DNA of 63,743 nt, the filler included, from Octopus bimaculoides (lineage: Eukaryota), in assembly GCF_001194135.2 (NCBI RefSeq). It is 4 parts of 4 records of this genome, joined end to end, with 100 filler letters (N's around TTAATTAATTAA, not from the genome) between each part and the next. Parts side by side here need not be neighbours in the genome. Positions count along the whole stretch, not along the records: positions 1 to 25,641 come from NC_068992.1; positions 25,742 to 43,793 come from NC_068988.1; positions 43,894 to 52,465 come from NC_069002.1; positions 52,566 to 63,743 come from NC_068981.1. The stretch is one strand, 5' to 3'. The position numbers and the translations under genes were made by a program. The notes under the pieces were generated by a model. That model made no database searches, was not told the DNA's origin, and saw only the letters and a list, made by a program, of their open reading frames with translations. Positions 65 to 54,662 of the stretch are shown here, in pieces (positions within the stretch are counted from its first letter, which is position 1; each line of letters starts with the position of its first letter).

Positions 65-100
65 CTTTCCGTTGAAGAGTGTAGGCTCGAAATGTAAAAG
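65..100 (+). ncRNA. Degenerate minimal hammerhead motif in a Penelope-like repeat end
   Basis: CUUU-CCGUUGA-A-GAGU-GUAG-GCUC-GAAAUGUA-AAAG. Stems I and II pair, but the core differs from CUGANGA at two positions. Confidence 0.45.
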
Positions 101-1242
101 ACTTTCTCACCTTCCCGAGCGTTCAGCTAATTGATCTGTTTATTGTTTACACACCTATCTTCGTCTTTTTTTTTTTGTAAATTCCAACTAAATATATATG
201 TAAATGTATGTATATGTTTGTGTACGTACGTATGTGTGTGTTTGTGTGCCTGTATACATGTATGTATATAACTTTTTAAATATTTGCTAAGGGATTATAA
301 ACAATCTCAGATGTTTGTAGGTAAAGAATATATCTTGTACCCAAAACTGAAAGACTCTTTAGACGTAGAGTAACAACATATGTCTATTGGAAATCTATAA
401 AATTGCACTGAACATCAGAAAAATACAAACAAGATATGTAAAGAAAACAAACGTCATTGACAGCAGGTGTGCGCGCACCAGTTTGTGTGTGTGTGTGTGT
501 GTGTGTGTGTGTGTGTGTGTGTGTGTGTGTGTGCGCGCGCATTAGCAGGAAAAACATGGGTACAGGATCGGTAATTAGGGGAACTTGGAAATATACAGGG
601 GAAGAAGTGGAAATTTGAGAATACTGTAGCTGAAAGTGGATATTAATATAAAATATGACATTTCTACTTTCACTCAAATGTAAAATTATACTCCATCTTG
701 AGATTGTAACTTAATCTATGAAGAAAATTCTTTGTGGAACACACTGTAAAATATCGTAAATTGTAATAAAATGTTGCATAACTGGGAAGAAATTTGCATT
801 ACTCGCATGTGATAGAAATGTTGTCTATCTTCCAAAATGCAATGGTCTTCAATTACTTTCCACTCTCCCCCCCCTCTTTTTTTGCCAACCATAGCTGAGC
901 TGACGTTTAGACATACCGAAGTGTGAATACGTTTTGGTGGGAAGAGTTACTGGGATACATTCAAACCTGCTTAGTATCTATCAACTCAGTAATGGCAATG
1001 AGAAACAATGGTGTGAATTTGCTATGGAGCAAATCCTTTTTCCAATTAAGAAAGAGAAAAGAAAATTTGTCCCCAATAACGACAAAGATTCACGAAGCTC
1101 TGTGAAACCAACATTCTCAGCCGCAAGATGCCTTAAAACTTTCCCCTTAACACTCTTCCTTCGTTAAATCACATTTCTGTGCACTTACTTAATCTTACCT
1201 GCATTTTGGGTCTTCTGGTTACCAAAACCTCTCATATAATGT

Positions 1243-1482
1243 ATATATATATATATATATATATATATATGTATGTATATAGATAGATAGATAGATAGAT
1301 ACATACATACATACATAGATAGATACATAGATAGATAGATAAATAGATAGATAGATAGATAGATAGATAGAAAGATAGATAGATAGATAGATAGATAGAT
1401 AGATAGATAGATTGATAGATAGATAGATAGATTGATAGATAGATAGATAGAGAGAGAGAGAGAGAGAGAGAGAGAGAGAGAG
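1243..1482. repeat. Compound microsatellite (TA)n-(TAGA)n-(GA)n
   Basis: Directly visible; accounts for ORFs 1219..1719 and 1232..1540. Confidence 0.98.
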
Positions 1483-4059
1483 GTGATAGAGCAGAATGAT
1501 AGTGAAGTTGATAATATTGCGCATGTATGTTTGTAGGCATGAAAATATCTCTGTATATATACTATATGATATCATATGTGTGCGTGTATGCGTGCATATA
1601 TATGTGTGGGTGTGTGTGTGAGTGTGTGTGTGGGTGTGTTCGTGCGCGTGTGTGTGTGCGTGCGTGCGTGTTCTGTTGTATTGTACACACGGTGCTATGT
1701 ATTTCCGCCAATCTTGCACACATTCTCATACTCAGAAACACACACATATATATTCATAAATGAATGCCTAAGGATTAGGTTTCTTATTTTCCTTAGATTG
1801 AAATTATTAAATGGGTTTCTTGACAAGAAAGCTGGAATGCGTTCCCTAAAAGTATATTCCCTTTTAGCAAAATAAAGGCAGAGAAATAATCAATTATGAA
1901 TTCGAAAGGAAGAATTACATGATTCTTCATCGGACACTAAACCATAAATAATCGACATTGCTACTAAAAACAACTGTTTCTACAGAAAATTTTGTATAAA
2001 TTGCCTTTTTGAAAAACTGAAAACAGCGAATTACAGATAACAGAAAACAAAATTTCCATAAAATTTGCTTTTTACAATAATTTTTAATAAAATTAATAAT
2101 TCTTAATCTACGAAAATCCCTATAGAAATATTGTATCTGTATCAAGAATTTTTTTAAAATAAAACATTTCGTATAGAGATATCAGAAGAGAAATACAAGT
2201 TAATATTAAAGTTCCTTACGCGCGTTTCATCAAGAAAGTTATTTGAAGCTCTGAGATATAAGTTCCAAAGGCATATAGCTGCTCAATTACAATGAATCAT
2301 TTGTAACGATTCAATAAAGTTTTCCACGAGGATCCGTTGTAGTTGAGCTTCTATATACAATTGGATTATCTGTCACCGGACTACAGCCATTCACTATGGT
2401 GAAACAAATGTATGCACTTTAACATGAATTTGTGCTTATCCTTATTTTTTCTACTTTATCTCTGAAACTCTTAACTCGTAATACTATATAGTAGTTGATT
2501 AACAACAATGCAGAAGGCAGTTTGGTTTATAAAAGTCTACGTAGAGTTCTAAACGTGAAAATAACATATATACATCAACTTGTACACAATTTACGATTGT
2601 ACATAAAACATACACGCAAACACACACACTCATATGTATACGATTAGAGATACATATACGAGTGTTATCTATGTATGTTTATCTGTATTCCTATTTACCT
2701 ATATACCGTTATCCTCTGTATTCACTAATAAGGATTCATAGCATCAATAGTTATTCGCGTTTGTATTTAGTGAGATTTAAGTAATACAGAATCTTCTATC
2801 TTGAGAATCGGGAGAATTCCAAACAAAACATGAAATATAATTGAAGAATCCTGACCAAACGTACACAAGTTTTCTTAGAGACTCTGATTATGATCACTAT
2901 AATACTGTCCCAGATTTATTTCATTTTTATTATTTTGGTCGTACGTTTTAGTTAGAGACTAAATGGTTCTTTGTAAAGGTATTTCGTATCTTAAAGAAAA
3001 CGAGATACATATTAATGAGCTGCTGTAGTGTAATATAAGTGCGCATGTGTGCGTATGCGTGAGTCTGTAAGTGTGTGCGTGCGTGTGCGTGCGTGTACGT
3101 GCGTGTGCTTGCGTATGGGTATACTGTATTCATTGAAATTGTCAAAATGTAAAGAGAAGTAATGTCTTCACATTGCTTTTGGCAACATTCAACAACAATA
3201 CTCTTATTTATTTCTCCAGAGTGAATATATATTTGGTGACTATTAACTATAGATAATTGTCTCTTAGAATTTCAAGAGAATTCTGTTTATTTTCAAATAA
3301 TATGTTTGAAAAGAGAAGACACAAAAATTCATACATATGCACACGTACATACATACACACACACACACAACCCACACATACAACCCATACACACACGCAT
3401 GCAACTTCCACGCACACAGAGTCATACCCTTATATATATATATATATANNNNNNNNNNTATATATATATTTGTTTGTGTACTATTAAGAACCCAAAATGT
3501 ATATAAATATAAATCGTTAAATAAATGTTTCTGTTTTGAATTGTGACATACACACAAGTCTCTCTCTCTCACTCTCTTTCTCTCTCTTTCTCTCTCTCTC
3601 TCTTTCTCTCTCTTTCTCTCTCTCTCTCTTTCCCTTTTCTCTGTATACATACATAACTTACACGCATAGATATATGTATACACACACATATATAGATACG
3701 CACACATACATATACATACACATATATATATATATATATTATAATAAAGGGTAAAAATCATTAATGATAATTTCTTTACCTTAAGCTTGAAACGGGATCT
3801 TGTACACGTTTAACCACGAGTTTAATTCATTAGCATTCTTTTGCTCGACTACAGCCCGTGTTTTATTTTTCGGAGTTTTTAAGGTGGTATTTTGGTGTCT
3901 ATTTTCTAGCGAGTAGAGAGACTTATATGCAAACTCTAGTTATAATTATGAATATATTATAATTATATAGATAGGACAGACAACAAAAGAAAGAAAGAGA
4001 CCTCGATATTATGTAAATATAGGAATTTATCTGAAAAAATATGTGACACTTATTCGGTA

Positions 4060-52565: not shown

Positions 52566-53498
52566 ACACCACCAATTTTTTTTTTCCTTCCTTCCCCCTC
52601 CCAAAAAGAAAAGCTCTACATTGTATTTGTCCCATCTTCGTTGAGCCCTGTGTGGCTAATAAAAGAAATGTATCTATCTATCTATCTATCTATCTATCTA
52701 TCTATCTATCTATCTATCTATTTATCTCTCTTTCTGTCTGTGTGTCTGACTGCCTGACTGTCTGTCTGCCTGTCTCTCTCTTTCTCTCTCTCTCTCTCTC
52801 TCTTTCTCTCTCTCTATATATATATATATATATATAAATTATGGGGGTGTATGTGTATACATATTTGCATATGTATATATCATCTACATATGTGTATGTC
52901 TATGCGCGTATGTACACACACACATACACATTCATATATATATAGAGAGAGAGAGAGGAAAAGAGAAAGAGAGTGAGGGATGGAAGAGGATTTGTTATGG
53001 CAGTCCGCTACAGGATGTGACCCTCTTGAGGCTTGCAGGTTTTGGTCATACAATGACTCGTTAACGGTGACACATGAAATTAACGCCGTCTGGAAGCTCT
53101 GCTAGTCTTATTACTCATTGTTCTTGGCTGACTGGACTGGAGAAACTTGAAATGATGTCTTGCCCAAGGATATAACCTGTCTCCCTGAGAGAGAATTGAA
53201 TCAATGAATTGAATCAATGTTCAAAAGCTTAGATGCCACTCGGTTATGCGCCTTCACACATACACACACACACGCACACACGTACATACATGCACACACA
53301 CATATACATACATGCAAACAAGCATGTAATACATACATAGATACATATATACATACATACATATATATATATATATATATATGTGTGTGTGTGCATATTT
53401 AAATAATAAGGATAAAAAAATTGAATATTAATTTCATTAATATCAATTTAAACCTAGCATATTGAAAAAAGTCTGAAGATTCAGAAAAATTATATTAC

Positions 53499-53778
53499 AT
53501 ACATATAAGCGGGATGACCACTAAGTGGACATCCAATATGCTAGATGTAGACCCCATATGGTCTGACAACTAAGAAAAGATTGTTCTCAAGAAAATTCAG
53601 CAAACGCCAAACGTGAGAGAGCATGACAAATGAAAAGATACAAAATATAATTGCTCGCTTACTTTCTGGTGTCTGCTGAATTTTTTTGAGAACAATCTTT
53701 TCTTAGTGGTCAGACCATATGGGGTTTACATCTAGCATATTGGATTGTCCACTTAGTGGTCATCCCTCTTATATGTAT
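53499..53778. mobile_element. 280-bp element with about 111-bp inverted arms (foldback/MITE)
   Basis: Arms at 53499-53609 and 53667-53778 are reverse complements with 7 differences, around a 57-nt spacer. Sits in TA-rich flanks. Confidence 0.85.
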
Positions 53779-54615
53779 ATATGCATATATATATGTCTGT
53801 GTGTTTATCAAAATATGTGTGTGCATGAGTTTATATGCCTACGTACACACATACAAACATGTACATATATGTCTGTATACGTGTTTCAAGGTATTCTACT
53901 AACACATATACTTCTATTATTGCTCTAAGAAAGTATACGAGTTACAGATTCGATAATGGTTAATCTGCAATATTTAAGAAACTCTATTCACTCAATTTGA
54001 TATAAATACTGTATTGTTTCTTTGTATATTTCAGCATGGGTATGCATTACTGAATTATATGGACCACCCAATTGCAAATAAACTTTTTCAATAAGTTTTA
54101 TCAATGTAATATCAACGAAATCACATTTTTATTTAGAAAATCTCTATAAGGGATGTAAGTAGTAACTATACCGAGAAGTAATCTTTGTCGTCACATCAAT
54201 ATGACCACACACACATATACATATATGCATATATATGTATATGTATATATATATATATATATATATATATATATGTGTGTGTGTGTGTGTGTGTGTGTGT
54301 GTGTGTGTGTGTGTGTGTGTGTGAGTGTGTGTGTGTGTGTGGATGGATGTATTAGATGCTTGGTTGCATGTGTGATATGTGTGTGTATGTATGTGTGTGT
54401 GTGTGTATGTGTGTGTGTGTGTGTGAGTGTGTGTGAAGGCGCATAACCAAGTAGTTAAGCATTTGAGCTTATTGGCTGTTCCGTGGGAATCGACGTAACT
54501 ACTGTTTTTAACTCCTGGAGGAGCCTCTTCTAACTGGTTATTGATGCAATCTGCACGCTATATATATTGCAAGCAGTGGAGCAAACCTCCACCAGCTTCT
54601 AGCAGACGACGGGAT

Positions 54616-54662
54616 CACCAGACCGTACGGTTTCGATCTCTTTGTGCCCATCCTCAGTGGTG
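54616..54662 (-). ncRNA. Type I hammerhead ribozyme fold with GUC cleavage triplet
   Basis: Minus strand reads CACCA-CUGAGGA-U-GGGCACAAAGAGAUC-GAA-ACCGUACGGU-C-UGGUG. Perfect 5-bp stem I, intact core, 10-nt palindromic stem III, stem II 4 of 6 positions paired. Confidence 0.75.

What the first reader, a model, noticed from the sequence alone, without database searches (positions are those of the whole stretch)
65..54662. Six different hammerhead ribozyme folds in 55 kb: a diverse, largely unannotated self-cleaving RNA repertoire
Seen: six motifs share one architecture (stem I - CUGANGA - stem II - GAAA - short or palindromic stem III - UH - stem I) but have unrelated stem sequences, so they come from several separate families. 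Three have intact cores. Established: Penelope-like retroelements and non-LTR retrozymes of metazoans carry minimal type I hammerheads whose palindromic stem III is completed by dimerisation. Inference: about one motif per 10 kb would imply a very large genome-wide population of Penelope/retrozyme-derived hammerheads that ORF-based and ordinary repeat annotation miss. Some could cleave host pre-mRNAs or produce circular RNAs.
Basis: partly seen in the sequence, partly recalled or inferred. Interest (0 to 1): 0.75.

Follow-up and report, generated by a model that had tools for sequence, protein, structure and literature searches.

The report
Penelope retrotransposon tails carrying hammerheads
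The six motifs are real but mostly ordinary: they are worn tail ends of six repeat families, four traced to Penelope-like jumping genes and two likely so, each carrying a hammerhead-shaped RNA predicted to cut only in pairs, and one very large family has an unusual core letter whose effect is untested.

Summary
All six motifs exist (C3 at 69+, 4119-, 10483+, 47325-, 48653-, 54657-), each in a different dispersed repeat family of a 2.34-Gb animal genome. The window is a pack of four unlinked stretches. Four families run upstream into a GIY-YIG endonuclease gene of Penelope-like elements (Neptune, two Hydra-type, Penelope/Poseidon-type); two are unlinked. They are 5'-truncated element ends with minimal type I hammerheads, as published for animal Penelope elements, not tandem retrozymes. 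Every window copy has a lesion against its family, none has a partner copy in its stretch, and two lie antisense in a P450 intron. Sixty fixed-position 10-kb samples give about 82,000 recognisable copies (51,000-125,000), one per 29 kb rather than one per 10 kb. RNA reads cross the predicted cut sites without an end pile-up. Less ordinary: motif 1 belongs to a lineage of about 10,000 copies with U at core position 6; my control pattern exposed about 7,000 permuted-order hammerheads elsewhere in the genome. The scan noted Penelope hammerhead ends, the A6U core and the permuted form before on other DNA. Cleavage is untested.

The parts
65..100 (+). Motif 1: minimal type I hammerhead, C3 at 69, predicted cut after 96. 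Family core CUG-U-NGA (A6U); this copy also has U4C and C15.2U. 3' end of a Neptune-type Penelope-like element; family-derived stretch about 21-245
   Evidence: U6 in 18 of 19 copies; stems I and II paired in 18-19 of 19; colinear endonuclease-UTR-ribozyme in L083 and L002
4064..4124 (-). Motif 2: hammerhead with long stem II, C3 at 4119, predicted cut after 4069; core intact, stem I broken by a 1-nt loss. 3' end of a Hydra-type Penelope-like element; family-derived stretch about 3941-4338
   Evidence: all core boxes in 19 of 19 copies; CxCX5C, CxxC, CxH motifs upstream in L343, L360
10479..10522 (+). Motif 3: decayed copy (U4A, G16.2U) of the commonest canonical family, C3 at 10483, site at 10518. 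3' end of a Penelope/Poseidon-type element; family-derived stretch about 10472-10578
   Evidence: (endonuclease reading frame upstream in L384, L388, L404)
47239..47330 (-). Motif 4: hammerhead with about 60-nt stem II arm and palindromic stem III, C3 at 47325, site at 47244; core intact, first stem I pair broken. 3' end of a second Hydra-type element; family-derived stretch about 47181-47397; antisense in a P450 intron
   Evidence: (L146, L262)
48622..48658 (-). Motif 5: minimal hammerhead, C3 at 48653, site at 48627; core intact, stem II reduced to 2 pairs. Old family, no reading frame linked; family-derived stretch about 48557-48757; antisense in a P450 intron
54616..54662 (-). Motif 6: hammerhead with 10-nt palindromic stem III, C3 at 54657, site at 54621; core intact, stem II partly broken. 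No reading frame linked; family-derived stretch about 54375-54662
46427..46596 (+). Cytochrome P450 exon (host gene) upstream of motifs 4 and 5
   Evidence: PF00067, E 7e-07; splice sites read
52023..52243 (+). Cytochrome P450 last coding exon (host gene) downstream of motifs 4 and 5; end approximate
   Evidence: PF00067, E 6e-16

Best explanation
The six motifs are decayed, single, 5'-truncated 3' ends of six repeat families, four of which run upstream into Penelope-like endonuclease genes and two of which likely do, and each end carries a minimal type I hammerhead predicted to cut only when two copies pair through the palindromic stem III. Shown: the families, their fold, the link to endonuclease genes (4 of 6), variable 5' ends, adjacent inverted copies, ends in (TA)n-type repeats, lesions in each window copy. 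Inferred from the literature: in a full element's tandem transcript two terminal repeats would form a double hammerhead and cut out the unit RNA, which the element's reverse transcriptase and GIY-YIG endonuclease would insert; most insertions stop early and leave only the ribozyme-bearing end, which then decays. The window copies are therefore likely inactive passengers. The A6U lineage (motif 1) likely carries a slowed or conditional ribozyme.
For: Families: 40 of 166, 16 of 16, 44 matches from 40 of 1739, 41 from 40 of 3034, 46 from 40 of 1411 candidates scored. Genome pattern counts 11,801 against 679 for the reversed pattern. Core and stems kept across copies while the six families share no stem sequence. 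Colinear endonuclease-UTR-ribozyme: Neptune type in L083 and L002 (74% identity); Hydra type in L343, L360, L357, L358 and in L146 with L262; Penelope/Poseidon type in 3 of 38 copies walked upstream. Variable 5' ends; inverted copy within 700 nt upstream in 10 of 38 and extra nearby copies in five families; two alternative 3' ends in the motif 2 family. These match the features in PMC8557442 and PMC4209133 (extra nucleotide after A9, palindromic 15.2-16.2, no monomer activity, low dimer activity).
Against: No reading frame was linked to motifs 5 and 6 (0 of 16 and 0 of 25 loci colinear; 2 more loci). No full-length element with two terminal repeats was recovered; of 60 endonuclease loci and 40 longer ones, none clearly ran into a window family downstream, in a gappy assembly. 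Within-family covariation is weak: motif 6 family has 3 pairs with two-sided changes (167 of 500 shuffles reach that; cells 14, 1 of 500), the other families almost none. Only 1 of the 6 window motifs folds better than shuffles (z -2.2; others -1.2 to +0.3). RNA reads show no end pile-up at four predicted cut sites. Clade names rest on motif comparison with PMC8557442 and recall, not on a tree.
Confidence: 0.85

Rival explanations
1. The motifs belong to non-coding non-LTR retrozymes: short tandem units that would be cut out, circularised and re-inserted.
For: Same ribozyme type; retrozymes are thought to derive from Penelope ends (bioRxiv 10.64898/2026.07.22.740005). A few same-strand pairs about 155-170 nt apart occur (L175, L178). 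Motifs 5 and 6 have no linked reading frame. Earlier scan notes report retrozyme-like families in this genome (unchecked).
Against: No ribozyme-bearing tandem array among the 150 of 162 Tandem Repeats Finder rows shown and no second family copy in the window. 5' ends vary. Four families continue into endonuclease genes. No read joint that closes a circle at a cut site among the joints shown (74 weaker joints not shown).
Confidence: 0.07
2. Some copies have been taken over by the host and would cut pre-mRNAs or make circular RNAs.
For: Family sequences are abundant in RNA reads (7,678-10,198 reads per 11.5-12.9 million on L301; 298-493 on the motif 2 stretch). About 35,000 copies genome-wide (16,000-67,000) keep all core boxes, so two sense copies in one long intron are plausible. 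Motif 6 could close a 3-bp stem III alone (read from the sequence).
Against: Motifs 4 and 5 are antisense to the P450 gene around them. All six are damaged and lack a partner. Only 1-2 reads per run match the motif 2 locus at 99% or better. Depth does not step at the sites and no end pile-up is listed there. Conservation in related species was not tested.
Confidence: 0.05
3. The motifs are chance matches in AT-rich, repeat-rich DNA.
For: A one-mismatch descriptor gives 4 hits against up to 5 in shuffles; the reversed window gives 1 strict hit. No Rfam hit at gathering score.
Against: Strict descriptor 3 against a mean of 0.05; each motif has many relatives with a better fold than itself; pattern counts 17-fold above the reversed control; 0 library hits in the reversed samples against 21.
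Confidence: 0.01
4. In these families the motif is kept as a structural signal (protein-binding or template-end mark) and cleavage no longer matters.
For: The A6U lineage reached about 10,000 copies with exact boxes although A6C slows a tested hammerhead by orders of magnitude in Mg2+ (PMC7151607). Published dimer activity of minimal hammerheads is low. Naiad elements spread without canonical hammerheads.
Against: All other core positions, both stems and the U-H site are kept in the A6U family while position 7 varies, as expected of a catalytic fold. This reading is compatible with the best explanation on origin and differs only on function.
Confidence: 0.25

Closest known systems
Minimal type I hammerheads of metazoan Penelope-like elements (Cervera and de la Pena 2014, PMC4209133; read parts 1-2 of 4)
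   Same: Type I order, short stem I, extra nucleotide after A9 (4 of 6 families), palindromic stem III, many unrelated families per genome, mostly single truncated copies, pairs on opposite strands 100-700 nt apart.
   Different: Larger census (about 74,000 type I-architecture copies estimated, against 2,000-9,000 reported for schistosome, coelacanth and Xenopus by descriptor, a stricter count). A family-wide A6U core is not in the parts I read (they report U3-A8). No cephalopod in the parts read; supplements not seen.
Endonuclease-positive Penelope-like elements: Neptune, Hydra, Penelope/Poseidon clades (Craig et al. 2021, PMC8557442; passages read)
   Same: C-terminal GIY-YIG; CX2-5CxxC linker (motif 1 family); CxCX5C, CxxC, CxH (motif 2 and 4 families); 5' truncation, inverted copies, short tail, (TA)n targets; hammerhead near the 3' end.
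   Different: No complete element recovered here; clades assigned by motif only. The motif 3 family has a tRNA-like segment in its 3' UTR, which I did not find described.
Metazoan non-LTR retrozymes (Cervera and de la Pena 2020, PMC7229834, passages; Li et al. 2026 bioRxiv, part 1 of 5 and passages)
   Same: Type I hammerhead, short dispersed monomers, very high copy number, proposed Penelope origin.
   Different: No tandem 150-450-bp units in the window, variable 5' ends, coding parents found, no circles seen.
Natural A6C hammerhead of phage Bcep176 (Perreault et al. 2011, PMC3088659; PMC7151607; passages)
   Same: A natural change at core position 6.
   Different: Here U, fixed in about 10,000 genomic copies of a retroelement lineage; activity unknown.
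Type-SGC non-circularly permuted hammerheads (Eckert et al. 2023, PMC10085705; sections 4, 13, 14, part of 18, passages, supplement search) - side finding only
   Same: Block order site, GAAA, CUGANGA with crossing helices I and III.
   Different: Reported only from metatranscriptomes (none in genomes of known organisms); here thousands of copies in an animal genome, with two further covarying helices to the 5' side and no clear stem II after CUGANGA. Not present in the window.

Membership tests
Minimal type I hammerhead of Penelope-like elements | Core boxes CUGANGA, GAAA, UH in type I order | tested here: met
   Family majority has all boxes in 5 of 6 families; the motif 1 family has U6 in 18 of 19 copies. 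Window copies: 4 of 6 intact.
Minimal type I hammerhead of Penelope-like elements | Stems I and II close around the core, G10.1-C11.1 | tested here: met
   Most pairs hold in 80-100% of copies. Exceptions: G10.1-U11.1 in 15 of 19 motif 4 copies; first stem II pair kept in only 7 of 15 motif 5 copies.
Minimal type I hammerhead of Penelope-like elements | Extra nucleotide between A9 and G10.1 | tested here: met
   Present in the families of motifs 1, 3, 5, 6; motif 2 has the extra base on the 3' side; motif 4 has none.
Minimal type I hammerhead of Penelope-like elements | Palindromic stem III | tested here: met
   Self-complementary in 5 families, one central mismatch in motif 2 (the motif 6 copy picked was a damaged one, the window copy is self-complementary).
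Minimal type I hammerhead of Penelope-like elements | Self-cleavage as a dimer | not testable with these tools
   Needs in vitro assay; RNA reads showed no end pile-up, unstranded libraries.
Endonuclease-positive Penelope-like element | GIY-YIG reading frame colinear upstream of the ribozyme | tested here: met
   Motifs 1, 2, 3, 4. Pfam GIY-YIG only weak for L360 (E 0.0066, below cut-off).
Endonuclease-positive Penelope-like element | GIY-YIG reading frame colinear upstream (motifs 5 and 6) | tested here: inconclusive
   None found in 16 and 27 loci; for motif 3 only 3 of 38 copies reached the frame, so absence in such samples says little.
Endonuclease-positive Penelope-like element | 5' truncation, inverted adjacent copy, tail, microsatellite targets | tested here: met
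   no inverted copy seen among the 16 motif 5 loci.
Endonuclease-positive Penelope-like element | Complete RT plus endonuclease frame between two terminal repeats; clade by RT tree | not tested
   No complete element recovered and no tree built; L343 shows RT C-terminal residues upstream of the endonuclease.
Non-LTR retrozyme | Head-to-tail tandem units of 150-450 bp each with a hammerhead | tested here: not met
   for the window; only isolated close pairs elsewhere.
Non-LTR retrozyme | Unit-length linear and circular RNA | tested here: inconclusive
   No circle-closing joint at the sites in three runs of one study; standard RNA-seq is poorly suited.
Rfam Hammerhead_1 (RF00163) | Score at or above 34 bits | tested here: not met
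   0 hits in the window; genome search gave 11 matches among 74 scored of about 186,566 candidates.
Type-SGC hammerhead (side finding) | Block order S-G-C with covarying helices I and III | tested here: met
   15 copies, 91.5% of cells paired, 10 pairs with two-sided changes (4 of 500 shuffles), slid controls 40-49%.
Type-SGC hammerhead (side finding) | Stem II formed by the strand 3' of CUGANGA | tested here: inconclusive
   The strand before GAAA pairs instead with a 5' segment (92.9% paired, 2 pairs with two-sided changes); the canonical pairing was only inspected by eye.

The most novel reading that the evidence does not exclude
A Neptune-type Penelope lineage has fixed U at the normally invariant core position 6 and spread to about 10,000 exact-box copies, about as many as all canonical short-arm hammerheads of this genome together; the CUGUNGA core is a working, conditional ribozyme (dependent on dimerisation, a particular metal ion or the element's protein), and with the permuted-order hammerheads this genome holds a ribozyme repertoire of three architectures, two of them not found in print for animal genomes.
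Probability: 0.3. Interest if true: 0.65.

Novelty: new member of a known kind. Interest (0 to 1): 0.35.

Why it matters
The main result extends a published pattern to a probable octopus genome and puts a number on it (about 80,000 recognisable copies that Rfam misses). What could matter more: the role of hammerheads in Penelope elements is still an open question (PMC8557442), and this genome offers sibling lineages with A6 and with U6 in the same stem frame, so a side-by-side cleavage assay would test whether these elements need their ribozyme to cut.

Tried and rejected
First descriptor (stem II of 2 or more pairs directly after A9) found nothing, because these ribozymes have an extra base there. 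Rfam in E-value mode was flooded by microsatellite matches to microRNA models; only 150 of 308 rows were shown and none was a hammerhead. My swapped-order pattern failed as a control because it matches a real motif; the reversed-pattern control differs in CpG content and is imperfect. Reading motif 1 as a C3U core was dropped: it leaves one stem II pair and no stem I next to the core, whereas the A6U register gives 4 plus 4 pairs. The decayed Neptune frame next to a motif 2 copy in L162 is only a neighbour: other copies of that Neptune family do not end in this ribozyme. In one search my offsets for motifs 2, 3 and 4 were wrong; only one search is used for them. In one search the hits of E224 and E234 at residues 160-216 are read-through into a common short repeat and were discarded. 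Pfam did not recognise the N-terminal and RT fragments. Other CUGANGA sites in the window (for example 46443+, 8808-, 42965-) lack stems or relatives. Run search: no RNA holder listed for window 3900-4400. Lunse et al. 2017 is not held; I saw only its title in a reference list, and it may describe position-6 variants. ARAGORN called no tRNA in 7 of 7 loci of the motif 3 family. No covariance model was built and no related species was searched.

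
Full report
Setting. The window is a pack of four stretches (1-25641, 25742-43793, 43894-52465, 52566-63743; 33-37% G+C) from a 2.34-Gb assembly of 145,327 contigs. Size, microsatellite load and earlier scan notes suggest an octopus; this is inference. Stretches 1, 3 and 4 map to contigs C12, C22 and C1, so the '55 kb' is not one locus.

The observation. The finding names no single coordinates. Relaxed scans and a search with ribozyme-bearing fragments from elsewhere in the genome gave six motifs with C3 at 69+, 4119-, 10483+, 47325-, 48653- and 54657-; the first begins at 65 and the last at 54662, as in the finding. 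A final library recovers these six and nothing else in the window. A strict descriptor hits three (47325, 48653, 54657) against means of 0.05 and 0.04, maximum 1, in two sets of 150 shuffles; the reversed window gave 1. With one core mismatch allowed there are 4 hits against means of 1.05-1.1, maximum 5. The descriptor was tuned on the motifs, so I rely more on the families. Rfam finds none at gathering score.

Six families. Each motif has dispersed relatives: candidates of the first look were 3034 (motif 1), 1739 (motif 2), 1411 (motif 4), 16 (motif 5) and 166 (motif 6), of which at most 40 were scored; motif 3 belongs to the family that dominates the genome-wide list. In alignments of 15-24 copies each, the family majority keeps the core, the stems and a palindromic stem III (for motifs 1, 5, 6; 86 for motifs 2, 3, 4). 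Copies with all core boxes: 14 of 19 (counting U6), 19 of 19, 14 of 22, 11 of 19, 5 of 15, 13 of 24; these samples are biased to the best matches and, for motif 3, were chosen for intact boxes. Each window copy departs from its family at one or more positions: U4C and C15.2U (1), a lost base in stem I (2), U4A and G16.2U (3), a broken first stem I pair (4), a broken third stem II pair (5), a broken third stem II pair (6). Two-sided changes within families are few; for motif 6, 89% of 308 cells pair, against 24-34% for slid partners, with 3 pairs changed on both sides (167 of 500 shuffles) and 14 such cells (1 of 500). The stronger evidence is between families: unrelated stems around one core. 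Only motif 2 folds better than its shuffles as a monomer, as expected where stem III needs a partner.

Origin. Walking upstream links four families to Penelope-like endonuclease genes. Motif 1: L083 and L002 run from a CX4CxxC linker and GIY-YIG frame through an 800-1,000-nt UTR into the ribozyme, 74% alike in both parts: Neptune type. Motif 2: among 28 longer loci, L343, L360, L357 and L358 reach a frame with CxCX5C, CxxC and CxH, the marks of the Hydra clade in PMC8557442. Motif 4: L146 has a second Hydra-type frame about 900 nt upstream, shared with L262 and continuous with other family copies. Motif 3: 3 of 38 copies reach a frame of Penelope/Poseidon type (clade name from recall). Motifs 5 and 6 were not linked. 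Searches from the endonuclease side did not give clean links, because of gaps and because ends of different families pile up in the same microsatellites. All families show variable 5' ends; five show nearby, mostly inverted, second copies (10 of 38 for motif 3); the motif 2 family has a short and a long 3' end. These are the published marks of Penelope insertions.

How many. Exact boxes CTGANGA-N6-30-CGAAACG occur 11,801 times against 679 for the reversed pattern. Sixty 10-kb samples taken at fixed offsets (600 kb, 506 kb without N) hold 21 recognisable copies: 13 canonical-family, 6 A6U-family, 2 permuted; 9 keep their boxes; the reversed samples hold 0. Scaled, this is about 82,000 copies (Poisson range 51,000-125,000), 74,000 of type I architecture and 35,000 with intact boxes. 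The window has 6 where 2.2 are expected (P about 0.03), so one per 10 kb overstates the density by about 2.7-fold.

The A6U lineage. Motif 1 is best read with four stem I pairs next to the core, an extra A after A9 and four stem II pairs; position 6 is then U in 18 of 19 copies. Sibling families have the same frame with A6 (L069, L095, L107). The pattern with any base but A at 6 occurs 13,039 times against 1,277; by my count of the first 100 rows about 82 have U6, with position 7 U, C, G or A in about 60, 12, 9 and 1, while 14 are internal matches within other families and 4 have C6. So roughly 10,000 copies carry CUGUNGA. A natural A6C hammerhead is known and A6C cuts the rate in Mg2+ by orders of magnitude while sparing Mn2+ (PMC7151607). 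Searches for 'hammerhead' with 'A6U' gave one paper on twister ribozymes, and with 'A6C' four papers; Lunse et al. 2017 could not be read. I reached this reading, which showed that the scan had noted A6U families in shark-like and other genomes; those notes are unchecked.

Activity. Published minimal hammerheads show no activity as monomers and low activity as dimers. None of the six has a second family copy in the window. Motifs 4 and 5 lie on the minus strand between two plus-strand P450 exons, so they cannot cut that pre-mRNA in cis; no host exon was recognised near the other four among 82 of 125 frames scanned. Three raw RNA runs of one study (about 6% of each read) were laid at 85% likeness on L301, which holds two motif 3-family copies and one A6U copy, and on window 3950-4330. 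The families are well represented, both strands equally (unstranded). No pile-up of ends is listed at the predicted sites (2532, 2689, 2890 in L301; 4069 in the window) and no joint shown closes a circle there. This is a weak test, but it gives no support to cutting or circles.

Mechanism. I commit to this: the ribozyme sits in the 3' terminal repeat; a tandem transcript would bring two copies together through the palindrome and cut out a unit RNA for reverse transcription at (TA)n sites; early stops leave ribozyme-bearing ends that decay. Origin and decay are shown, cleavage and its role are inferred (0.85 for origin; function in the A6U lineage is open).

Side finding. My swapped-order control matched 8,018 sites against 669. 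Flanks show the order site, GAAA, CUGANGA with four crossing helices: 91.5% of 363 cells paired in 15 copies, 10 pairs changed on both sides, 0-4 of 500 shuffles as high. The order is that of type SGC, for which Eckert et al. found none in genomes of known organisms (no 'octopus' in text or supplement; 'type-SGC' occurs in that paper only). The scan had reported this motif several times, and its wording led me to test the extra 5' helix. It is not in this window.

Literature. Searches. None showed a hammerhead survey of an octopus genome; the giant squid paper lists 235 Rfam hammerhead hits. Supplements of PMC4209133 and PMC8557442 were not seen and may include cephalopod families.

Verdict. 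Observation confirmed; interpretation partly supported; new members of a known kind, with one variant-core lineage worth an assay. Interest 0.35.

Noticed in passing
G000 genome-wide; examples L122, L124, L127, L129, L133-L141, L338: About 7,000 permuted-order hammerhead-like motifs (8,018 matches against 669), several families, four crossing helices with covariation; already noted by the scan, which ties them to Naiad elements (not tested here).
   Followed up: partly
L128 and L137, just upstream of the motif: A third permuted-order family follows the end of a reading frame that looks like a restriction-like endonuclease of a non-LTR retrotransposon (read; HERO type by recall and by scan note e1-8168276).
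   Followed up: no
L388, L384, L404 (motif 3 family), about 155 nt upstream of C3: A tRNA-like segment with A- and B-box-like words lies in the 3' UTR between the endonuclease stop and the hammerhead; 16 of 37 copies begin 143-166 nt upstream of C3, at its start. This may be a polymerase III-driven short element inside the commonest family. ARAGORN does not call it; seven alignments stopping at 79 are a microsatellite artefact.
   Followed up: partly
window 46427-46596 and 52023-52243 (+): Two exons of a cytochrome P450 gene; motifs 4 and 5 are antisense in the interval.
   Followed up: partly
window 51216-51548 (+): Mariner-type transposase remnant (PF01359, E 6e-05) in the same P450 interval.
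   Followed up: no
window 44414-44566 and 45066-45223: 42-bp minisatellite on both sides of an assembly gap.
   Followed up: no
L221, L222, L226, L162, L055, L058, L126: Ribozyme-bearing ends of one family are often directly followed by a piece of a different Penelope family, probably because all target the (TA)n left by earlier insertions.
   Followed up: partly
L244, L241, L246, L248 against L162: One Neptune family has a long AC-rich 3' region followed by an inverted copy of its own 5' region and showed no canonical hammerhead in the 10 loci fetched.
   Followed up: no
L001, L004, L008, L009: A further hammerhead family with an 85-nt stem II arm, the best Rfam RF00163 matches in the genome.
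   Followed up: no
L037-L051 (motif 5 family): U4C in 5 of 15 copies, more than other core changes.
   Followed up: no
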